Of a stretch of DNA of 64,000 bases, positions 42,010 to 64,000 are shown in pieces. The stretch lies in assembly GCA_964016885.1 (NCBI GenBank), contig OZ024740.1:166532001-166596000 (forward strand). The letters are read 5' to 3'. How positions within the stretch are numbered: position 1 is the first letter of the stretch; each line of letters opens with the position of its first letter. The translations under genes were made by a program, and so were the position numbers. This DNA is from Eledone cirrhosa. Its lineage: Eukaryota. The notes below the pieces were generated by a model. It was not told the DNA's origin and did no database searches. It saw only the letters and a list, made by a program, of their open reading frames with translations.

Positions 42010-45000
42010 TGTCTTCATAATCTTGAGAAAAAGTGCTTTTCTTTGGAGTTATGTTTGATGTTGTCTTAGAGAATAAATGTGCCGAGAAGGATTCGTGGGG
42101 CAAGTGCCGTATTTTAATAGAATGATGAAGATGTTTCTATCACTCTATTACACATTATTTGACATGATAGTAACTGTTCCTTTTATTCATTGGTAGTTAG
42201 CAAATACGTTAGAATGTTAATCCTTCAAATTTGCCAACGTTTTTCAAATCTGATCTAGCGAAATCTAATTTATCTATTGTCAAAAGAACGTTAGATTGAC
42301 AATCGCTATAGCCTCTAAAATAAAGTTTTGCCATATTTAGTAATGAACATCTTAGATCTAACTTTCAAACCATCCAGCGTCTATAACATGAAGTACCAAT
42401 CCTATTAACTTATTTGACTGATTTGTATTCAAATAATACACCCTAGATTTGATTTAAATATAAATCGAAGAGTAAGACTAGTATTTTTAAATCCATTCCT
42501 TATCACAGTTGTATCAGTAAAGTTTAAATGGGTCTGTTGTTTCATTTACACAAAAATTAAGGTAATATATGCATCATATATTGAGTTAGAAACTCAAAAT
42601 AGTCTTTTACAATTAAATAGCTGAAGGAAGGGAATCTTTCCGAGCCGTGTAATACATGAGATGAGATGAACACCGATACCAGTATACATGTGTTCGAATT
42701 GTAAATGACCAAGTTAGCTAGGTTGAAAAATACTAATTTAAAACAATATGGTTTGCCTGTATCGATTTAAAGTAATAAACCAATAAAAAGAACAAACCTA
42801 TATTGGGCAATCGCCCAGTACTGTTTTTTTTTTTTTTTTTTTGTCCGTATAAAGAGTTTATGTTAAAAATGTATTAATATATATATATATATATAAAATG
42901 TATGAATATTTTTTAAACTAATGTAACGTTACTTTTTCTTTGTCATAGCACAAAGAAAGCAATGTAAGAGATACTTCACAACCAAATATGTAGACAGAAT
43001 CAAGTAACTATAATGCCTATACATATCGGCGCATGCCGATACTCTTGCATCCAAATGTAGAAAACCTTCTTAAAAACCTGAGGACGTCGCACGTATAATC
43101 AGAGACTGAAAAATGAATTTCAGGTAAGTCCTCTCGATATGACAGCAGCAGAATCGAAAGCAATATTTTGAGAAATCAAGCAAATATTTCCAAAGGGTGA
43201 ATGTTTTTGTTTTTTTGTGTTCTAGAATACTGTAATATAATTCTAACACACCCCTTCTGTGATATAGATTATAATTATATATTTCAATATTTTATCAATC
43301 TAAAACTCTTTTTGTTATTGTTTCATATAGGAATGATGTACTTAATGATGTCCGCAAAACACTTTCAATTAATTGAAATTTGCATCATAGATTCAGAAAG
43401 AAAATAAATGTTTATTGGCAATGTTTAGGAGTGATAATTGGAAAATAATGAAAATTGACTTCACCGAAATTTGAATTTTCATGTTCAAAGGAAAGACCTT
43501 ACCGTTGTTAGCAAGGATGGTAATATATACTGATATTTCAAACATTTTCAAAGAAAAGTACATAACATTTGTAAATATTACATGTTGACTAATGATATTT
43601 CAAATTTGTTAGACCTCTTCAGCAATGTGTGGGCTTCTGAAGCCTTTTTGATTAGTGGATATTGAATTTCACATGTAGAGAAAGAGTTACAAACACTGTT
43701 TTCCCAGAATTATTTGCATCATTACAACAGCAGAACTTGGTATATAACTTAAGTATGGCTAGTGTATGCTTTTAAAAAATTCCTGTGGTAGGTTCTGTAC
43801 TGAAGTAAATACTCAACAAACTTACAATGCTTCTTTTCGTTGCCAACAATACATTCCTTTTAGTTTGCAATCGCACCAGAATAAAATATTTCTATAATTT
43901 TATTATCAGTTCAAAGGAACTATGAACCTAAAATTATGGCACACAGGGGAATCCGGTTTAGACGAGAAAATTACTCTAATCGATTGCATCTTAAACACTA
44001 TAGACTTGAATGCCAGACTGAACCATAATAGAAAATTCACATCAGTATGTCTTATTTATTACAGAAGAGAGTCGGTTTTCAGTGTGTGTGTGTGGATAAT
44101 GGTCTTTTTTTTACACACTGGAATCCATTCAAGTATAAAGCAATACGCACAGGAGAATGATTGTACAAACAAGCATCACAAAAGTTTCAGTGGATAACAA
44201 AGTCACTATGCTGCGAGCATGCCAGTTCATACAGACAAGGAGATTAAGGTAAATCAACCAGATATTATTGTTAAAAATTATCAGAAAAGTAACACAAAAC
44301 AAAGCGAAAAATGTAAAAATATACGTATGTCAATCCATAAATCGAATCAACGAACAACGATATATAACTAAAAGAAAGGAAGACATTTTCGAAATAGAAA
44401 GATCTACACATAAAGATAAACATGGTCTGCGATACAAGAAAAGAAACACCATAATAATAATTGTCTTGGGAATATTCAGTATATAGATATATTCAATATA
44501 CAAAGGATAGTACAATTTAGTACTTCTTACATATTAAGAAGTGTACTTTCATTACAATAGAAAATAAGAAAATCAAATCAACACACCATATGGTGTATAC
44601 TTATGTCCTCAATAGTGCAGGGAAAACACACAATAAAATAAGAATACTGAATAACGATCACAATTTATTCTAATTTTTACCAAGTTTTATGAAGGAAAAA
44701 GCAATGAAATCGATCCTATCACTTGAGTGGTATATTATTTCATCAACTATAGATATACTGAAATTTGCCATTAGATGTTACCTTTTTATAGAAGCGTCTA
44801 TTAAAACTGACAATGTTGAATAAAATCCATGTTTTAAGTGTTTTCAACACACGAATTGTTATTGTTCGGGCATTAAACTAGGAGAAGGAAACCTCCGATA
44901 TAAAGAGACTCTATGGCAGCCAATTTTGTTGACCCGTTTCTCTTTTTGGATACCCTTGTTCAGAGAGTGGGGTTCGTCCTGTGCAATGACTACTTCACTT

Positions 45001-50835: not shown

Positions 50836-51401
50836 TGAACCCGTCCACTGGACGGTTCAAGTAGCTTTCGATGTAGCTCATTAAACTAAACAAAGTAAAT
50901 TTGAATACATAGAAGAAAATCGTATTTTATGTAAACATAAAAACCTTAGGCACTATTCCAGCGAAATAATTAATATGTGAGCTCGGTGTCATCCATTATC
51001 CCATGTAACAACAGAAATCCAGTCTAGGTATAAATGTTTTGGACAACAGTAAAGCCTCTTGTTTCAAGTACAAAGAGTAAAGTAAAATCCGAATGAGCCG
51101 AATTGTAATAATCAAACTCCCAAAACAAAATTCTTGACAACATCAAAAATGAGTTCCTATTGTATTGTCTTACATAATGACGAAAATTGACACAAATAAC
51201 GGAAACTTTTTAATGTCTCCAAAGCCCCAATATCGATTTTTAAAAGCCTTTGTAGATCATGTACTGATTTTGTGCAATGAGAAGCTCTGTAAAAAATTTC
51301 AAAGAAATCGCATGAATTATTTAGAATATATGAGCCCGCATTAAAGATTGTCCACACACACATACATACACATACAGAAAACTACATTTTTATATATATA
51401 C

Positions 51402-51438
<37 letters not shown>

Positions 51439-51546
51439 AATGAAGTAATTCCATCGGAAAAGTCCAGGAAAAAAGAGTGCTCTATGTAAGCAACAGAGCT
51501 TAATTATTATTATTATTATGTAATAAACAACATAAGGCAATTATTC

Positions 51547-51600
51547 CATTTACCAGTGGTTTCTTAAAAGCAAAAGGTTTTGCTTTCAATCCTCAGAATG
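51547..51600 (-). ncRNA. Type I hammerhead with GUA triplet; identical copy at 55836-55889
   Basis: CATT-CTGAGGA-TTGAAAGCAAAA-CC-TTTTGCTTTTAA-GAAA-CC-ACT-GG-TA-AATG. Confidence 0.85.
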
Positions 51601-51812
51601 AAAAATCCTGGTTTGTTTATTGAATATGGATTCTAAAAACGAAAATGCAATCTATATGAAAGTGAGGCTGGAAAAGGGAGAAGGAAAGGAAAAATAAAAT
51701 AAAATAAAACTACACATGCAAACACACACAAAAAAACCCAAAAGCATACTTACACACACACACATATATACACATATAATTTGCACGCATACACATATAC
51801 ACATACACATAC

Positions 51813-51873
<61 letters not shown>

Positions 51874-51976
51874 CACATACATACACATATATATATATAA
51901 AGAGCGTACACCTACACACACATACACATATATATACACACACATATACACATACATATATTCATACATACACACG

Positions 51977-52012
<36 letters not shown>

Positions 52013-52034
52013 TATACATACACATGTACATATC

Positions 52035-52078
<44 letters not shown>

Positions 52079-52527
52079 CATATACACACACATACACATA
52101 TACATACACACACACACACATATGTGTGTGTACAAGCCTACACATACACACACACATATATATACACACACATATACATACATTCACACAAACATACAAC
52201 GTACATACATACATACACATACATGAATGCACTCCACTACATATTAACACACGCAAATAAATATAAGAAAAAAATATATATAAATAATATTAACAAATAT
52301 TTGACAGCGATACATGCCCCAGCTAACAGGACAGACACGCGTGGTAAGTAATACACACATAAGCGCATATACATACGTTCGAAATAGTAAACACATACAC
52401 ACACTCTCACACATAAATATACATATACAAATACATAAACACGTACATACACATACATACGCAAACACGTACACGTATACAATATAAACACACACATGTA
52501 TATGTAATTATATACACACACACACAC

Positions 52528-52572
<45 letters not shown>

Positions 52573-52852
52573 CAAAATATAAAAATATAAACGCACACAC
52601 ACATATAAATACGTAAACACACATATACATACATAGCTAAACAATTATACACATGCAAATACGTATATATCAAAAGAACGCACAACCAAATACAAACACA
52701 CACACATATATACACACACACACACCCACACACAAACCCACACATACATAAAAATAAATAAAAACACACGCAACATATACATACATACACATACATATAC
52801 ATATATACATATATACATATACATATATATATATACACATACATATACACAA

Positions 52853-52886
<34 letters not shown>

Positions 52887-53030
52887 ACGTACACATACAC
52901 ACATGCATACACATACACACACACATATACATGTGTGTATGTGTAAAGCTCAGTATTAGATAAGACAAATGAACCTTACATAAACGTATATATAGTAGTA
53001 AAGTAATAAAGCCATACAAGGCAATTAATC

Positions 53031-53084
53031 CATTCACCAGAGGTTTCTTAAAAGCAAAAAAAGTTTCCTTCAATCTTCAGAATG
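53031..53084 (-). ncRNA. Second, paralogous hammerhead with GUG triplet; identical copy at 57316-57369
   Basis: CATT-CTGAAGA-TTGAAGGAAAC..TTTGCTTTTAA-GAAA-CC-TCT-GG-TG-AATG. Confidence 0.75.
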
Positions 53085-53140
53085 AAATATACAAATATAT
53101 ACACACATACAGACACGCACACACACATATATATATATAC

Positions 53141-53175
<35 letters not shown>

Positions 53176-53476
53176 TACAGACATATATACATACACACAT
53201 ATACACACACATACATATACATACATACATACACATATATATACATACACAAACATACACGTACACATATACATATATACACACAAAAATACATACACAT
53301 ACACATAGGTATGTGAAGGGCAAAACAAAAAGAATATATGGGGTGGGGGGCCTAGAGGAGGTAAAAATATAAAGGGAGGTAAGGGAGAAAAAAATATTTT
53401 TAAAAAAAAACAAGAGTACAGAAGGTAGAAGCAGCAAAATAAAAGCCGTAGCAAAAGTAAAGAGCAGAGAAGGAGT

Positions 53477-55610
53477 TCAAGGCGGTTGATTTATCGTAGG
53501 AGTGTCAATCCAGTTACAGATCAGATGCGATTTCAGATGAGGACAGCATCTGAAGATCTCAGTCTTAGAGTTAAGGCAAGCGGAAGTGTCTCTCAAGTTT
53601 AGCAAAATCCTATACTTTTCTGTGGTACACAAAGAACAATTCTTTGTGCCCCTTTGGTACTCCCTCGAATGGTCTAATATAGACCAATCAATAGAGTACG
53701 GGATATTACTATCCTTGAGATCCCATACCTTACTTGCGAGGGCCGTTGATGTTCGTTTATCTGAGTGTTTAAAAGAAGCGACATGTGAGTAAAATCTGGT
53801 TTTAAACCTGTCCTGGGTCATACCGACATATCGCTCGCTTCTGGCTGGCTGGTTGTTGATAACTGGCGTTATTTTAGCCTCATAAACGACAGATTTTGTT
53901 TTACATTTACCCTGCAATGGGCATTCATCCGGCTTCCTGCAACTGCATCCTGGATTTATCCTCGTACGGTTTGAACTGGTGATTTTGGATTTCATGGATG
54001 GACAACAAGAGTAGCTGATCTTAACTACATTCCTATTAAAAATCTTATAATATCTATGAATAGGAGGAAAATGTTTGTCTAATAGTTCAAGGAATTTCCT
54101 TCCTACATTAGTTTTGACATTTAGAGAGAAGGGGGGTGTGAACCAAATAATCTTCCTTTTCCTGTTATTATGGTTAGTTTTAGGGGGGGGGAATAGGTAA
54201 ATAAGAAATATTTTCTGTAAAACCGCTGTTCTTAAGGGCTTTATTATAATAAGGGGCGGCTTTATTAAAAATGTCTATAGACGAAGATAAAGTAGAAATC
54301 CTACGGCTAATGTTAGGAATAAGATTATTAAAAACTATAGGGGGATGGCAAGACTCTTTGTGTATATACCTAAGATTTTCATTAGGTTTATGATAGGGTT
54401 TAAAAGAGGCAGTAAGTAGATCAAGATTAATATCAAGAAAGTTAGCATTAGTAAGGTTCGTATCTATAGTAATTTTAAGGTTAAGATTAGCAAAGGTACT
54501 AATTAAATCTTTACGGAATTTATCAAGATTATGGCCATTGGTGGTATGAGAAACTGCTAATCCGTCATCACGGTATAAACCGATATTATGGGACGGAAAT
54601 TTCTCTTTGAGTGTGTGGAGAAGGAATAATCCTACTAAGTCGCACACATCCGCACTGTCATAAGAACCCATTGCAACATCGAAAGAGTTTTCAGGGTTTG
54701 ACTTTTTAACCCAAATCTTATCATTAGTAAAAAGTAAAGTTTTTCTGGCATGAAAGATAATGTCCTCTTCTAATTTGGAGATATTAATGAAGGGTCTTGC
54801 AAAATCTAAGGCTTTAGTTAATAAGGAAACGGTAATAGAAGGGTAAAAATCGACAATATCAAATTGCGTAAATCTACACTTATTTTTACCTTGTATATTA
54901 TTGAACCAAGAAATAACAGAGGAAGTATTTAGCCACTGTGAAAGGACAGTGTTAGTTCTAATTTGGATAATTATTTTTCTTAAGATTTTCTTACTAGCAA
55001 GGCCAACCTCGGATTTAGCCGGGTTAATCAGTCTACAACTAGGTCGATTAGTAAAGTCCAATTTATGGTCTTTAAGGGTAATATATGCTTTACGCTTAGC
55101 TAAGCTTTCAATCCGGTTATCTATTTGTAAAGAACTAGCTAGTTCTTTAGCTTCTTTATTGATAGTATTGTAGCTATTATTATTAGTTAATTGATATTTA
55201 TTGGTAATACTATTAGTTAAAAGTTGGTTATACAAATTACTATTAACTTCAAAGAGGTTTTTGGTTTTATCAGAAAGAACAAAAGTGTTTGTAGAATTTC
55301 TAAAATTAGAGATATCGTGAGAAAGTTTAGTTTGAAAATTATTATTGTACTTACGAAATTTGATATCACTAATTAGATTAACGAGGTCTAATTCGAAGTT
55401 GGCCATGTCTTTAATTCTAGGTGGATATTTACGGGATTTAATGTCAAAATTATCTTTAGTATCAGCACTGAATAGTCCATCGTAAACCATTGCCTTCCAT
55501 CTCATTCTTTTAACGACTTGCTCGATTTTATCAATGAGGATTTTGGTGTATGTTGTGTTGGAAGGAGTGGGTATGTTTTTGATAGAATAATCCAAATCAT
55601 AAAGGTCCAT
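53477..55610 (-). CDS. PLE RT + GIY-YIG ORF (~710 aa) split by one extra C in a C9 run at ~54183-54191
   Basis: YSIKNIP..KRMRWKA, FDIVDFYPSI, AMGSYD, LYRDDGL, NFLDI. Removing one C gives ..IPPPKTNHNNRKRKIIWFTPPF..KHFPP..SYSCCPSMKSK, in frame with CSCRKPDECPLQGKC..VVYEA..YVGMT. Confidence 0.88.
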
Positions 55611-56101
55611 GGTGTATGTTGGTTAAATTCCTGAAAACTGTAGAGTGCTCAACTAATCGGGCTGGAAAGTGCCAATCGTATATGTAATATCGAATATGCT
55701 GCGATCAATCCCGGTTGGAGCTGTATAAATGAAGTAATTCCATCGGAAAAGTCCAGGAAAAAAGAGTGCTCTATGTAAGCAACAGAGCTTAATTATTATT
55801 ATTATTATGTAATAAACAACATAAGGCAATTATTCCATTTACCAGTGGTTTCTTAAAAGCAAAAGGTTTTGCTTTCAATCCTCAGAATGAAAAATCCTGG
55901 TTTGTTTATTGAATATGGATTCTAAAAACGAAAATGCAATCTATATGAAAGTGAGGCTGGAAAAGGGAGAAGGAAAGGAAAAATAAAATAAAATAAAACT
56001 ACACATGCAAACACACACAAAAAAACCCAAAAGCATACTTACACACACACACATATATACACATATAATTTGCACGCATACACATATACACATACACATA
56101 C

Positions 56102-56162
<61 letters not shown>

Positions 56163-56263
56163 CACATACATACACATATATATATATAAAGAGCGTACAC
56201 CTACACACACATACACATATATATACACACATATACACATACATATATTCATACATACACACG

Positions 56264-56299
<36 letters not shown>

Positions 56300-56321
56300 T
56301 ATACATACACATGTACATATC

Positions 56322-56363
<42 letters not shown>

Positions 56364-56812
56364 CATATACACACACATACACATATACATACACACACAC
56401 ACACATATGTGTGTGTACAAGCCTACACATACACACACACATATATATACACACACATATACATACATTCACACAAACATACAACGTACATACATACATA
56501 CACATACATGAATGCACTCCACTACATATTAACACACGCAAATAAATATAAGAAAAAAATATATATAAATAATATTAACAAATATTTGACAGCGATACAT
56601 GCCCCAGCTAACAGGACAGACACGCGTGGTAAGTAATACACACATAAGCGCATATACATACGTTCGAAATAGTAAACACATACACACACTCTCACACATA
56701 AATATACATATACAAATACATAAACACGTACATACACATACATACGCAAACACGTACACGTATACAATATAAACACACACATGTATATGTAATTATATAC
56801 ACACACACACAC

Positions 56813-56857
<45 letters not shown>

Positions 56858-57137
56858 CAAAATATAAAAATATAAACGCACACACACATATAAATACGTA
56901 AACACACATATACATACATAGCTAAACAATTATACACATGCAAATACGTATATATCAAAAGAACGCACAACCAAATACAAACACACACACATATATACAC
57001 ACACACACACCCACACACAAACCCACACATACATAAAAATAAATAAAAACACACGCAACATATACATACATACACATACATATACATATATACATATATA
57101 CATATACATATATATATATACACATACATATACACAA

Positions 57138-57171
<34 letters not shown>

Positions 57172-58033
57172 ACGTACACATACACACATGCATACACATA
57201 CACACACACATATACATGTGTGTATGTGTAAAGCTCAGTATTAGATAAGACAAATGAACCTTACATAAACGTATATATAGTAGTAAAGTAATAAAGCCAT
57301 ACAAGGCAATTAATCCATTCACCAGAGGTTTCTTAAAAGCAAAAAAAGTTTCCTTCAATCTTCAGAATGAAATATACAAATATATACACACATACAGACA
57401 CGCACACACACATATATATATATACATATATATATATATATGTACATATATATATATATATATATACAGACATATATACATACACACATATACACACACA
57501 TACATATACATACATACATACACATATATATACATACACAAACATACACGTACACATATACATATATACACACAAAAATACATACACATACACATAGGTA
57601 TGTGAAGGGCAAAACAAAAAGAATATATGGGGTGGGGGGCCTAGAGGAGGTAAAAATATAAAGGGAGGTAAGGGAGAAAAAAATATTTTTTAAAAAAAAC
57701 AAGAGTACAGAAGGTAGAAGCAGCAAAATAAAAGCCGTAGCAAAAGTAAAGAGCAGAGAAGGAGTTCAAGGCGGTTGATTTTATCGTAGGAGTGTCAATC
57801 CAGTTACAGATCAGATGCGATTTCAGATGAGGACAGCATCTGAAGATCTCAGTCTTAGAGTTAAGGCAAGCGGAAGTGTCTCTCAAGTTTAGCAAAATCC
57901 TATACTTTTCTGTGGTACACAAAGAACAATTCTTTGTGCCCCTTTGGTACTCCCTCGAATGGTCTAATATAGACCAATCAATAGAGTACGGGATATTACT
58001 ATCCTTGAGATCCCATACCTTACTTGCGAGGGC

Positions 58034-58946
58034 ACTTCAATTTATTATAATAAATTTATAAATTTAGGAATTTATAAATTTTCGGTTGGTTGGTTGGTTC
58101 CACAACCAGATGAGTGCTTATATTGTCAAAGTTTTTAGTCACACATTCTGTGACCTCTTCAGTGACTGGGGATTATTTTCTTTGTTTTTGTGCCTCTTCT
58201 TTGTTCTGTCCTACGCCATCTTGTTTTTGTGTGTGTGCTGTGTGCTTAGTTTGCGCATGTGTTACATCCGGGTGTCTGTGTGTGTTTATATTCGTTTATT
58301 TATTTGTTTATTTACATTTTACTGGTTGGTTTTTTGTTCTATGTGCGTGTGTGTTTTCATTTTGTCCTTAATTTTAAGTTGTGATGTTGCTGTTCCACTC
58401 ATGTTTTCTATTTAATTTTGGTTGGATTTCGTTTATGTTTATTGTCTCTGTGATTTGTCTAAACATTGCGTCTTTTCTGTGTGTAGATTCTACACACAGA
58501 AAAGACGCAATGTTTAGACAAATCACAGAGGCAATAAACATAAATGAACTCCAACCAAAATTAAATAGAAAACATGAATGGAATAGCAACATCACAACTT
58601 ACAATTAAGGACAAAATGAAAACACACACACACATAGAACAAACGACCAACCAGTAGCATGTAAATAAACAAATAAATAAACAAATATAAACACACACAG
58701 ACACCCGGATGTAACACATGCGCAAACTAAGCACGCAACACACACAAAAACAAGATGGCGTAGGACAGAACAAAGGAGAGGCACACAAAACAAAGAAAAT
58801 AATCCCCAGTCACTGAAGAGGTCACCGAATGTGTGACGAAAGAACTTTGACAATATAAACAATCATCTGGTTGTGGAACCAACCAACCAACCAACCGGAA
58901 ATTTATAAATTCCTAAATTTATAAATTTATTATAATAAATTGAAGT
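58034..58946. mobile_element. 913-bp palindrome built from a PLE 3' end (centre 58488), with an HHR at 58809-58851(+)
   Basis: Arms of ~455 bp with scattered mismatches. They encode RQITEAININELQPKLNRKHEWN, homologous to the C-terminus of the 37189 ORF. GTCA-CTGAAGA-G-GTCAC-cgaatgt-GTGAC-GAAA-GAACTT-TGAC. Confidence 0.92.
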
Positions 58947-60097
58947 TCCAACTGGTGCGTGTGTTTCTTATTGGCAACATGACCCTCCCAAAGTATAACA
59001 GTATCGGTTTGAACACACGTTTTCAGATAAAAAATCTTGCTAAACAAATTCAGAAATGATATATATATATATATATATACCCATACACATATATATAAAT
59101 AGATCTGTGTGTTTATGTGTGTGCATGTGTGTGTGTATATGTGGTTGTCGCTTTATAATTTAGTATTTTATGTGCGTTCCTTTTGCTCGAAAATATATTG
59201 ATATATACGACAACAAAGTAGGTGAAAAAGAAAATAGAAATATTACAAAAGAACGAAACGAATGACAAAAACACATGAAATAAAAGAAAGTAATGATAGA
59301 AAATGTAAAGTAAGAACATTCTCAACTAGTTTGAGAGAGCAGAATTTGTAACATAGTCAATTACAGCTTCCAAGTAAATTTTTTCTGACAGCAAAAAGAT
59401 TTATAGCAACCAGACCAACAGAGAGAGAATCTAAAGGAGAGGAAGCAAAGGTAAAACCGATATAATTCCTCAAATTTACAGACGAATGTTTTCTCGGCCA
59501 TATTTGTTTTAATCGTTGTTTTTGTCGTCGCCATATTTGTCATTGTTGTTGTAGCTTTAGCTTCATTTTTGATGTTGCTTTTGTTGTTGTTGATGATGCT
59601 GTTGTTGTAGTTATATGTTATTAGTCTTACAAGACAATAGCAAGCATTTTCTTTGATCCAACAAAAATGACACTGCATCCCCATATGAATTACGTAGTGT
59701 TTCTTTCAAAGTGTTCAAAGAAGACAGTTGAAATAATTTTTCATTTATTTTATATTATTTTATATATTCTTTTGTGATTATTTTATTTCACTTATTTCTT
59801 TATATATTCATGTTTAAATATATCAATGGCGGCATTTGTTTGAGCTCTTGATAGTAAATGAGAGTAAAATACCTTTGTGGGCAGGTGAATAATATGATAA
59901 TATATGGTGTGAGCGTGAATAACTGAAATATCAACACACATACAGTTACACACGCACACACACATACACACACACAGACACGCTCTCATACACACACCCA
60001 CACACACATACACACACATCCACATATATATATGTATATAATTATAGCAGCAAAATAGAAGAAAGATAACCAATCATAATAATGATTTCTTATATAG

Positions 60098-62089: not shown

Positions 62090-64000
62090 CAGGGCCGGAT
62101 TAAAACCTTTAGAGGCCCTAAGCACTAAAAATGTTGGTGCCCCCATACATTTGTAGATCAAAACATAAACAATAATATATGGTAAATTAAAGTTTTATTT
62201 ATTGAAATTTCAAAATACAGCAAAAGATAGAGAAAGAGAGAAAATCATTTCATTTATTGAATAATCTTTTCCTGCTTTTTTTTCTTGCAAAGACTTTGAT
62301 CAGATCTTCGTAACCAATCTTGCGTAACACATCTGCTTCTATACACAATAGGGATAATGCATCCAGCCTGTATTGTTGCATGGCTGTTCTGAAGGGATAT
62401 TTAATATATTTCAACCGCTGAGCAGTTAGTAACCATTAATATTAAAAACATACGAAAGGCTATGTCTACATTTGGAAAGGCACACTCAATATTGTCTTTT
62501 ACAATAATTTTATAAAGTTCACCATGATTAAATCTTGTTTTTACATTTTCTGTTCTACTCATCTTATTTCGCACATATAAATGAAACTGCTGAAGCTCAG
62601 CTGAGAAATTACTATTGAAGTCCTCTGAATAAGCATCGATCAACTTTTGACAGTACTGAGAATACCTTTCAATATTAGTATCTGATGGAGTGCCTATATT
62701 TGGCACATCACTAAGAAAAGAACATTTCTCTGCCATTTCTTTGTGTATCTCTCCTCTTCTTTCCATCTCAGCTGCAAGTTTGTCAACAGTTGTGTAAAAT
62801 GTGGTGATACGAAACTTATCCCTGGCATCTAAATAAACTTCTGCTGTATCTCCGTCATTGGCTACTTTTTTTCTAATACGTTTGCGAGTTGCAGTTGTCC
62901 TGTAATCAACATCTGGAAGAATTTCCTTGGCCGCTTTTTCATATCTTTCAAATTCATCTCGTGAGGTGTTCAGTTGGTCAGCTAATGATACATAGAGATC
63001 TGCACATGTCTTTAAGTTCGCAACCTCATTTTTAGAACTTTGCTTACTCTGTGAAAATTCTGCAAAATCTCATTCCAAAAAATCAACATAAAAACGAATT
63101 TTAGCTCTTGCATCTTATCAACAATATTATTTGCCTCCCTTCTAACGTCTCCCTTTTGTGATTGATCTTCAGCTATATATTCTAATGCCTCGGAAATCTC
63201 AGAGAACGATTTCAAGATTGCTGCGGTGCCATAGCAGGTGCTTCCCATCTTGTATCAGAGAGGGATTTCAAGACACATTCATTCTTAATACAATCTTTGA
63301 GAATTTTCCAATGGTTAGTGGAAGCGGAAAAAATTATAAAGTAACAGTACTGTAGAGAAAAAAATTTACCAGCCTCTTGACAGCAGACCGACCAACACGA
63401 TTTAATTAATGAGCTGCACAGGGCACATATATAGCAAACTTGTTTGTTTCTAAAAGTTGTTGCTGCATCCCCTTATATCGCCCAGACATGTTAGCAGCAT
63501 TGTCATAAGTATGACCCCTACATTTTGAAACATTTAACCCAGAAGCTTCACGTAAATGCAGCAGTACCTGGTTCGCCATATTCTCGCCAGTGTGGTTTTC
63601 TATTATGATGAAGGTTAAAATCGTTCAATAGGCTGTCCATCTTGTAAATACCTAAGTACAACACTCAATTGATCGCTATGTGATAAATCCGGTGTTGAAT
63701 CAACGTACAAACTAAAATAACCAGAAGATTTAACTTCGTTAATAATGAACTCCCGGACCTTTTGTGCCATTAGTTGAATAATTTCCTCGATAGTGGTTTT
63801 TGACATGTAAGAAGGATTTCCTTTTCCAGAATTTCGATATTTAGAAATGTGGCCTGCTAAAAATGGATCAAACTGGCTTATGAGTTCAAGCAGCCCTAAA
63901 AAATTCCAATTTTGCAACGATCTAAACTTCTCTTCACTTCCTCGAAAAGCAAGCCACATTAAGCTAACGTACAAATAGCAGCTACGAAACGCCTCAAAAC
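62090..64000 (-). mobile_element. Decayed hAT DNA transposon (Tip100/ZMYM1-like transposase), continuing beyond the window
   Basis: LAFRG..NFLGLL, YFSLYVDSTPDLSHSDQLSVVLRY, TYDNAANMSG, CAAH, LSDTRW, LMVTNCSA. Stops and frameshifts. Terminal CAGGGCCGGATT at 62090. Confidence 0.9.

What the first reader, a model, noticed from the sequence alone, without database searches (positions are those of the whole stretch)
51435..58033. Young Hydra-type PLE with giant pseudo-LTRs, each holding two hammerheads around 1.45 kb of microsatellite-like sequence
The 2.3-kb repeats are unusually long and almost identical. Each has a GUG-triplet HHR (predicted non-cleaving) and, ~1.48 kb downstream, a GUA-triplet HHR, with short ACC/GGT stem IIIs. 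Established: minimal PLE HHRs tend to act as dimers. Inference: the GUG copy could be a dedicated helper that completes a dimeric ribozyme, so that only one site per repeat is cut and a ~4.29-kb unit RNA is released.
Basis: partly seen in the sequence, partly recalled or inferred. Interest (0 to 1): 0.75.

Follow-up and report, generated by a model that had tools for sequence, protein, structure and literature searches.

The report
Penelope element with relic second hammerhead
This is a young, still-spreading jumping gene of the Penelope type whose long tail carries two self-cutting RNA motifs; the one predicted not to cut is likely a decaying leftover from a piece of the element that once inserted into its own tail, not a purpose-built helper.

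Summary
In detail: two 2.31-kb repeats (1 mismatch, 4 small indels) flank a Hydra-type RT-endonuclease ORF, each with a GUG and a GUA hammerhead motif 1.48 kb apart. The 'giant pLTR' is only one 5' truncation point of a 2-kb microsatellite-rich 3' UTR; sister copies show 0.3-4.0 kb. GUG is family-wide (580 matches), but genomic copies record its history. Relatives with one hammerhead and the long UTR exist. A ~115-nt copy of the element's own 3' end appears inside a TA tract of that UTR as an identical GUA copy, later GUG. Since then the upstream motif has lost its outer helix, its stem-III palindrome and about 9 kcal/mol of predicted fold. A 70-match sister lineage reads GUA again with a broken first stem-I pair. 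Constraint on the upstream motif is not significant; on the downstream one it is. All 130 copy ends run past the predicted cut. A dedicated helper is unlikely (~0.15) but not excluded: its catalytic core is still intact. The scan noted Hydra-type hammerhead ends in this genome before, not this two-motif family. No cleavage or RNA data.

The parts
51435..55723 (-). One full unit (4,289 nt) of a Hydra-type Penelope-like element
   Evidence: colinear full units in L052, L054-L060
55724..58033 (-). Upstream 5'-truncated partial copy (the 'pLTR'): 267 nt of ORF end plus the whole 3' UTR
   Evidence: length differs between tandems, 301-3,996 nt in 5 others
51435..53743 (-). Downstream counterpart of the repeat
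53477..55610 (-). RT + GIY-YIG ORF, 710 aa in intact copies; this copy has one extra base in the G run at 54183-54191
   Evidence: 1 mismatch and 1 gap column against the intact copy L052
51435..53476 (-). 2,042-nt microsatellite-rich 3' UTR, older than the second hammerhead
   Evidence: its islands are shared with single-hammerhead relatives L210, L215, L218 and traced across stages
53028..53087 (-). HHR1: GUG hammerhead motif (H17 = 53035), predicted non-cleaving; relic of a self-inserted 3' end
57313..57372 (-). HHR1 in the upstream partial copy (H17 = 57320)
51544..51603 (-). HHR2: GUA hammerhead motif, predicted cut 51551/51550, with an outer helix formed by its flanks
55833..55892 (-). 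HHR2 in the upstream partial copy, predicted cut 55840/55839
51604..53027 (-). Spacer, 65% dinucleotide runs; HHR1-HHR2 distance 580-6,424 nt among 114 copies
51435..51550 (-). 116-nt tail after the predicted cut; family copies end about 46 or 116-118 nt after the cut
51391..51434 (.). (TA)n target at the element's 3' end

Best explanation
This is a recently amplified Hydra-type Penelope-like retrotransposon with a 2-kb microsatellite-rich 3' UTR, whose upstream GUG hammerhead motif is likely a decaying relic of a ~115-nt piece of its own 3' end that inserted into a TA tract of its own UTR, while the downstream GUA motif is the conserved one that marks the element's end. Shown in the copies: single-hammerhead relatives with the long UTR; old copies with two identical GUA modules, the upstream one flanked by (TA)n; later GUG; then loss of the outer helix, the stem-III palindrome and use as an element end. 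Inferred: the endonuclease targets (TA)n, so the element's own UTR was a target; reverse transcription starts 46 or 116-118 nt after HHR2 on uncut or re-joined tandem RNA; variable 5' truncation of the more-than-unit copy sets the 'pLTR' length; GUG was neutral or mildly favoured because it removes an internal cut (G17 is predicted to pair with C3). If HHR2 cleaves as a dimer, its better predicted partner is another HHR2 one unit away.
For: Origin: in L083 the two modules are identical from just upstream of stem I to the short 3' end, and the upstream one has (TA)n on both sides. In 54 copies picked by the RT region alone and holding an ORF end (of 59 fetched), 34 have HHR1 = GUG, 9 have HHR1 = GUA, 5 have one hammerhead 1.2-2.1 kb after the stop, and 6 show none (L207 and L212 re-read by eye as GUG HHR1); 5 of those 6 begin the older UTR that lacks HHR1. 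An ORF-only tree of 95 copies gives the ladder single HHR, GUA+GUA, GUG, then two sister lineages with support 1.00. HHR1-context matches: 18 GUA, all with N7 = U/C, against 212 GUG. Decay: predicted active fold of HHR1 goes from -12.9 to -3.6 kcal/mol while HHR2 stays near -12 to -13; the HHR1-HHR2 dimer goes from -34.8 to -25.6 against -32.8 for HHR2-HHR2. The sister lineage has 70 of 70 matches with GUA and C opposite A at the first stem I pair. Selection: HHR2 has 0 of 45 structured positions changed from the first GUG stage to the window type (p = 0.002 against pooled neutral sites); HHR1 has 6 changes over both lineages against 6.6-8.7 expected (P = 0.24-0.50). The HHR1 module was an element end in 3 of 19 GUA modules (2 independent events) and 0 of 125 GUG modules. 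All 130 HHR2 modules extend at least 35 nt past the cut, in line with uncut RNA as template in Anolis Poseidon (PMC11167929).
Against: None of the 11 invariant core positions of HHR1 has changed in either lineage (1.6-2.1 expected, P = 0.12-0.20), while the free position N7 changed twice, U to G to A. On the path to the window alone HHR1 shows 2 of 45 changes, borderline low (p = 0.03-0.08). No amplified post-duplication lineage that has deleted HHR1 was seen among the 54 copies. N7 changed U to G in both motifs at about the same stage, which hints at exchange between them. Energies are nearest-neighbour estimates without tertiary contacts. The oldest nodes of the tree are weakly supported and the root is assumed.
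Confidence: 0.72

Rival explanations
1. HHR1 is a built-in helper: its catalytic half folds onto the GUA site of HHR2 as a double hammerhead, so that each unit is cut once.
For: Core intact, 0 of 11 changed. The enzyme half shows 1 of 34 changes on the path to the window (p = 0.053). GUG has persisted through about 16% synonymous divergence (25 of 153 fourfold sites). The double-hammerhead fold is nested and 9 kcal/mol better than two monomers in the oldest modules. PLE hammerheads need dimers (PMC4209133).
Against: Single-hammerhead relatives spread without it. The 70-match sister lineage has a C-A mismatch next to the cut that would also impair helping. The stem-III palindrome, described as needed for double hammerheads (PMC6466107, passages), is broken in HHR1 in both descendant lineages and kept in HHR2. 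HHR1-HHR2 is now 7 kcal/mol weaker than HHR2-HHR2. Spacing is unconstrained, 0.6-6.4 kb.
Confidence: 0.15
2. The inner fold of HHR1 is weakly kept as a second binding or folding site for the element's protein, with no catalytic role.
For: The Anolis PLE hammerhead cleaves only with protein (PMC11167929). Core and proximal stems are intact on the path to the window.
Against: The active-like fold is now 5.8 kcal/mol above the free fold. The flanks and the end function are lost. Constraint is not significant once the sister lineage is counted.
Confidence: 0.1
3. The repeat or the GUG is an assembly artefact or a private mutation of this locus.
For: The repeats are nearly identical and the ORF has a homopolymer frameshift.
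Against: 580 GUG matches, 232 of the exact window type; 30 of 30 loci carry both motifs; the partial-tandem layout recurs with other truncation points.
Confidence: 0.02

Closest known systems
Hydra clade of C-terminal EN+ PLEs, closest named family Hydra-1_Obim from Octopus bimaculoides (Craig et al. 2021, PMC8557442; Hydra section, passages, supplement parts)
   Same: RWK, DKT, CxCX5C linker, CxxC and CxH motifs, 3' hammerhead with an ACCA-N-UGGU stem III, (TA)n target. The ORF is colinear with Hydra-1_Obim from the first residue (compared by eye only).
   Different: 4.29-kb unit against 1.1-3.0 kb for the listed Hydra consensuses (Hydra-1_Obim 2,507 bp); 2-kb microsatellite UTR; two hammerhead motifs per unit, where File S2 lists one sense-strand motif per Hydra family, all with A, C or U at the cut; hammerhead sequence unlike that of Hydra-1_Obim, so a different family.
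Minimal dimer-type PLE hammerheads (Cervera and de la Pena 2014, PMC4209133, parts 1-2 of 4 read; Lunse et al. 2017 not held, seen only as cited in PMC6765202)
   Same: Type I topology, long stem II, very short stem III, palindromic in HHR2.
   Different: Here two non-identical motifs sit in one unit and one is NUG; published dimers are of like motifs. U-A rather than G-C follows the core.
Poseidon PAc of Anolis (Frangieh et al. 2024, PMC11167929, parts 1-2 of 4 read)
   Same: Partial tandems; two element ends downstream of the hammerhead (tail); copies run past the cut.
   Different: Tail here is about 70 nt (46 against 116-118) rather than 30-40; different clade; no biochemistry for this family.
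Terminons of bdelloid rotifers (PMC6431247, passages)
   Same: PLEs with hammerheads at the 3' end, in long chains.
   Different: Terminons are endonuclease-free, telomeric and multi-ORF.

Membership tests
Hydra-clade PLE | RWK motif near the N-terminus | tested here: met
   residue 37 of the intact copy L052
Hydra-clade PLE | DKG changed to DKT | tested here: met
   residue 114
Hydra-clade PLE | CxCX5C linker | tested here: met
   residues 555-563
Hydra-clade PLE | Single ORF, RT then C-terminal GIY-YIG endonuclease | tested here: met
   YRDD at 346, VVY at 574 and YVG at 594, placed as in the Hydra-1_Obim rows (by eye). No Pfam or PDB profile hit, so this rests on motifs.
Hydra-clade PLE | No CCHH motif; CxxC and CxH near the endonuclease end | tested here: met
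   no Cys between residues 574 and 594; CxxC at 658, CxH at 689. The usual place of the CC pair is recalled.
Hydra-clade PLE | Hammerhead at the 3' end and insertion into (TA)n | tested here: met
Hydra-clade PLE | Placement inside the Hydra clade in an RT tree | not tested
Hydra-clade PLE | Typical length under 3 kb (the paper says 'generally'; descriptive, not defining) | tested here: not met
   unit 4,289 nt; this is why it is filed as a variant
Cleaving hammerhead ribozyme (HHR2) | CUGANGA/GAAA core, three stems, NUH triplet | tested here: met
Cleaving hammerhead ribozyme (HHR1) | NUH triplet | tested here: not met
   GUG; rule from PMC9217987
Double hammerhead HHR1-HHR2 | Palindromic stem III/loop on both partners | tested here: not met
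   kept in HHR2; broken in HHR1 of the window lineage and of the sister lineage
Double hammerhead HHR1-HHR2 | Dimer fold favoured in the transcript | tested here: inconclusive
   -562.6 against -563.9 kcal/mol for two monomers, free fold -574.7
Double hammerhead HHR1-HHR2 | Cleavage depends on the partner | not testable with these tools
   needs an in vitro assay

The most novel reading that the evidence does not exclude
After a chance self-insertion, the upstream motif was kept as a catalytic half-ribozyme that cuts the downstream GUA site within one unit, a natural enzyme/substrate split of a double hammerhead; or its silencing in both surviving lineages marks selection against an internal cut, which would be indirect proof that PLE hammerheads cleave in vivo.
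Probability: 0.18. Interest if true: 0.7.

Novelty: new variant of a known kind. Interest (0 to 1): 0.36.

Why it matters
What PLE hammerheads do is open: Craig et al. call their function unclear, and in Anolis cleavage was not needed in vitro. This family holds a dated natural series (one hammerhead; two identical GUA; GUG plus GUA; a broken GUA plus GUA) on one master lineage, with intact 710-aa ORFs. That series allows a direct test of dimer dependence and of whether an internal cut costs anything. It also shows a way for a (TA)n-targeting element to remodel its own microsatellite-rich UTR. If the relic reading holds, the biology is ordinary PLE behaviour.

Tried and rejected
Rfam scan: only microRNA-type chance matches among the 150 listed, no hammerhead. 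Pfam and PDB sequence searches gave no RT or endonuclease hit. Unconstrained folds of the short motifs were no better than shuffles (z -1.45 and 0.25). Full-context folding could not separate monomers from the double hammerhead. Sequencing runs: no RNA holder listed; no reads were laid, so RNA ends and the frameshift are unchecked in reads. Lunse et al. 2017 was not held. My first origin model, 3' transduction of flanking DNA, was dropped when single-hammerhead relatives showed the same UTR islands. An apparent constraint on HHR1 (2 of 45) came from patterns that missed the sister lineage; (first 100 rows each) showed no GUA for the same reason, and the signal vanished with copies picked by the ORF. 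One search used too long a gap and its count of 2 is void. One fold script crashed and an IQ-TREE run timed out; FastTree was used. Searches for a published two-hammerhead PLE unit or self-insertion listed nothing on it; I read only the papers named. No protein database search or structure prediction was run, as neither bears on the hammerhead question.
Full report
Observation. The two repeats are real: 51435-53743 and 55724-58033, 2,309 and 2,310 nt, 1 mismatch and 4 small indels. They flank a minus-strand ORF from 55610 to 53477. A scan of both strands of the window found four good type I hammerhead motifs, all on the minus strand: GUG at 57320 and 53035 (HHR1), GUA at 55840 and 51551 (HHR2), plus one weak match at 43622. 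HHR1 and HHR2 lie 1,480-1,484 nt apart, across a spacer that is 65% dinucleotide runs. GUG breaks the NUH rule (PMC9217987, passages). This copy's ORF has one extra base in a homopolymer; it otherwise differs from an intact 710-aa copy by one base. The run is 8 long in 29 of 34 hits in fetched loci, 9 in 4 and 10 in 1, overlapping loci not removed; a sequencing error cannot be excluded.

Family. The protein has RWK, DKT, YRDD, CxCX5C, VVY/YVG, CxxC and CxH, the marks of the Hydra clade (PMC8557442, Hydra section). By eye it is colinear with Hydra-1_Obim (supplement), so the host is probably a cephalopod (inference). The genome is 3.0 Gb. All 40 scored of 960 candidates for the HHR1 region were identical to the window, at least 15 of 150 scored RT matches sit in 714-codon open frames, and window-type copies differ from their majority by 0.1%. 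The family is young and probably active. The motif pattern has 4,195 matches: 580 with G at the cut, 11 with C or U, so 3,604 with A; 232 are of the exact window type.

The pseudo-LTR. The repeat is the 2,042-nt 3' UTR plus 267 nt of ORF. In 5 other young tandems the upstream partial copy is 301, 788, 990, 3,566 or 3,996 nt. Its length is where reverse transcription stopped. What is unusual is the UTR: listed Hydra consensuses are 1.1-3.0 kb in all, with one sense-strand hammerhead each where one is listed.

History of the second hammerhead. I picked 59 copies by their RT match alone; 54 held an ORF end. Of these, 34 have HHR1 as GUG, 9 as GUA, 5 have a single hammerhead 1.2-2.1 kb after the stop (L218 has an interrupted junction), and 6 show none; 5 of the 6 begin an older UTR without HHR1. 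The single-hammerhead copies share the spacer islands and have about 0.8-0.9 kb of further UTR where dual copies have HHR1 (read by eye). In the old copy L083 the two modules are identical over about 115 nt, ending at the short 3' end, and HHR1 has (TA)n on both sides: the signature of a 5'-truncated copy inserted in the element's own UTR. HHR1-context matches number 18 with GUA, all N7 = U/C, and 212 with GUG. An ORF-only tree of 95 copies (copies with under 900-1,000 aligned bases and all but 4 window-type copies left out; rooted on the most diverged single-type copy) gives a ladder: single, GUA+GUA, GUG with N7 U, G, then A, then two sister lineages with support 1.00. Copy ages fall in the same order, 2.1% to 0.1%. 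One sister leads to the window. The other has 70 of 70 matches with GUA, a C opposite A at the first stem I pair, a stem II mismatch and a changed stem III loop.

Helper or relic. From the first GUG stage to the window type the lineage changed 25 of 153 fourfold sites and 78 of 624 sites in five UTR islands. HHR2 changed 0 of 45 structured positions (p = 0.002). HHR1 changed 2 of 45 (p = 0.03-0.08). Adding the sister lineage (4 more changes, counted by eye) gives 6 against 6.6-8.7 expected (P = 0.24-0.50); the 11 core positions remain unchanged against 1.6-2.1 expected (P = 0.12-0.20). So HHR2 is constrained, HHR1 is not shown to be, and a small constraint on its core is not excluded. The predicted active fold of HHR1 fell from -12.9 to -3.6 kcal/mol and is now 5.8 above its free fold; HHR2 stayed within about 1 kcal/mol of its free fold after the first stage and keeps an outer helix; the HHR1-HHR2 dimer fell from -34.8 to -25.6 while HHR2-HHR2 is -32.8 (3 of the picked copies skipped for mutated anchors). 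Double hammerheads are described as needing a palindromic stem III loop (PMC6466107, passages); HHR1 lost it in both lineages. In the full 1.77-kb context the two folds differ by 1.3 kcal/mol, which decides nothing. Spacing ranges from 580 to 6,424 nt in 114 copies. The HHR1 module ended the element in 3 of 19 GUA modules (2 independent events) and 0 of 125 GUG modules (the 30 loci were chosen with spacer-side sequence and so favour continuation).

Mechanism. All 130 HHR2 modules with enough flank run at least 35 nt past the predicted cut: 70 end within 55 nt (53 at 46), 51 at 106-120, 9 continue into the next unit. A linear RNA ending at the cut cannot be the template; uncut tandem RNA or a re-joined circle can. 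In Anolis Poseidon, reverse transcription starts at two internal sites after the hammerhead, cleavage needs protein and is dispensable (PMC11167929); circles were proposed in PMC4209133. Sixteen of 19 GUA-type HHR1 modules continue into the spacer, so an internal GUA motif did not stop full-length copying. The likely picture: (TA)n targeting let the element insert its own end into its UTR; the extra end worked for a while, was silenced and is eroding; HHR2 and its tail remain the functional end. Release of a 4,289-nt RNA is possible and untested.

Comparison and novelty. It meets the motif tests for the Hydra clade; the RT tree was not run. It differs in length and in carrying two motifs per unit. 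My searches listed no description of such a unit; Lunse et al. 2017 was not available and may bear on this. Earlier notes of this scan describe Hydra-type hammerhead ends in this genome but not this family. Verdict: a new variant of a known kind; the helper idea is unlikely but cheap to test. Interest 0.36.

Noticed in passing
window 58034-58955: A 922-nt fold-back element (92% self-complementary) directly abuts the PLE's 5' truncation point. Its arm at about 58810-58855 (+) holds a different minimal hammerhead motif (2-bp stem III, CUU triplet, read by eye), and the mirror arm has a broken GAAA. Probably the inverted 3' end of another PLE family.
   Followed up: partly
L070:6383-7525: Three further GUA modules in tandem, 360-400 nt apart, at the end of one copy: module duplication recurs.
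   Followed up: no
G000 C1:370509559 and 69 other places: Sister lineage whose upstream motif reads GUA but has a broken first stem I pair; the order of the two changes is unknown.
   Followed up: partly
L046, L063, L065, L125 (HHR2 stem I): Sub-lineage changes in HHR2 stem I keep pairing (A to G gives G-U; U to C gives C-G), unlike those in HHR1.
   Followed up: partly
HHR1 and HHR2, position N7: U to G in both motifs at about the same stage; a short conversion or parallel change.
   Followed up: no
G000 C2:99421870/99429723 and C2:380939775/380941011: Both arms of one insertion share an HHR1 core mutation, so donors with a broken HHR1 core may have transposed.
   Followed up: no
L180 about 5.0 kb and L207 about 3.4 kb after the stop: Related but distinct hammerhead ends with other stem II sequences: further families with the same stem III.
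   Followed up: no
window 62401-63472 (-): Broken reading frames that look like a hAT-type transposase (recalled resemblance, not tested).
   Followed up: no
window 50837-50862: Short perfect inverted repeat next to a TA run, possibly the end of another small element.
   Followed up: no
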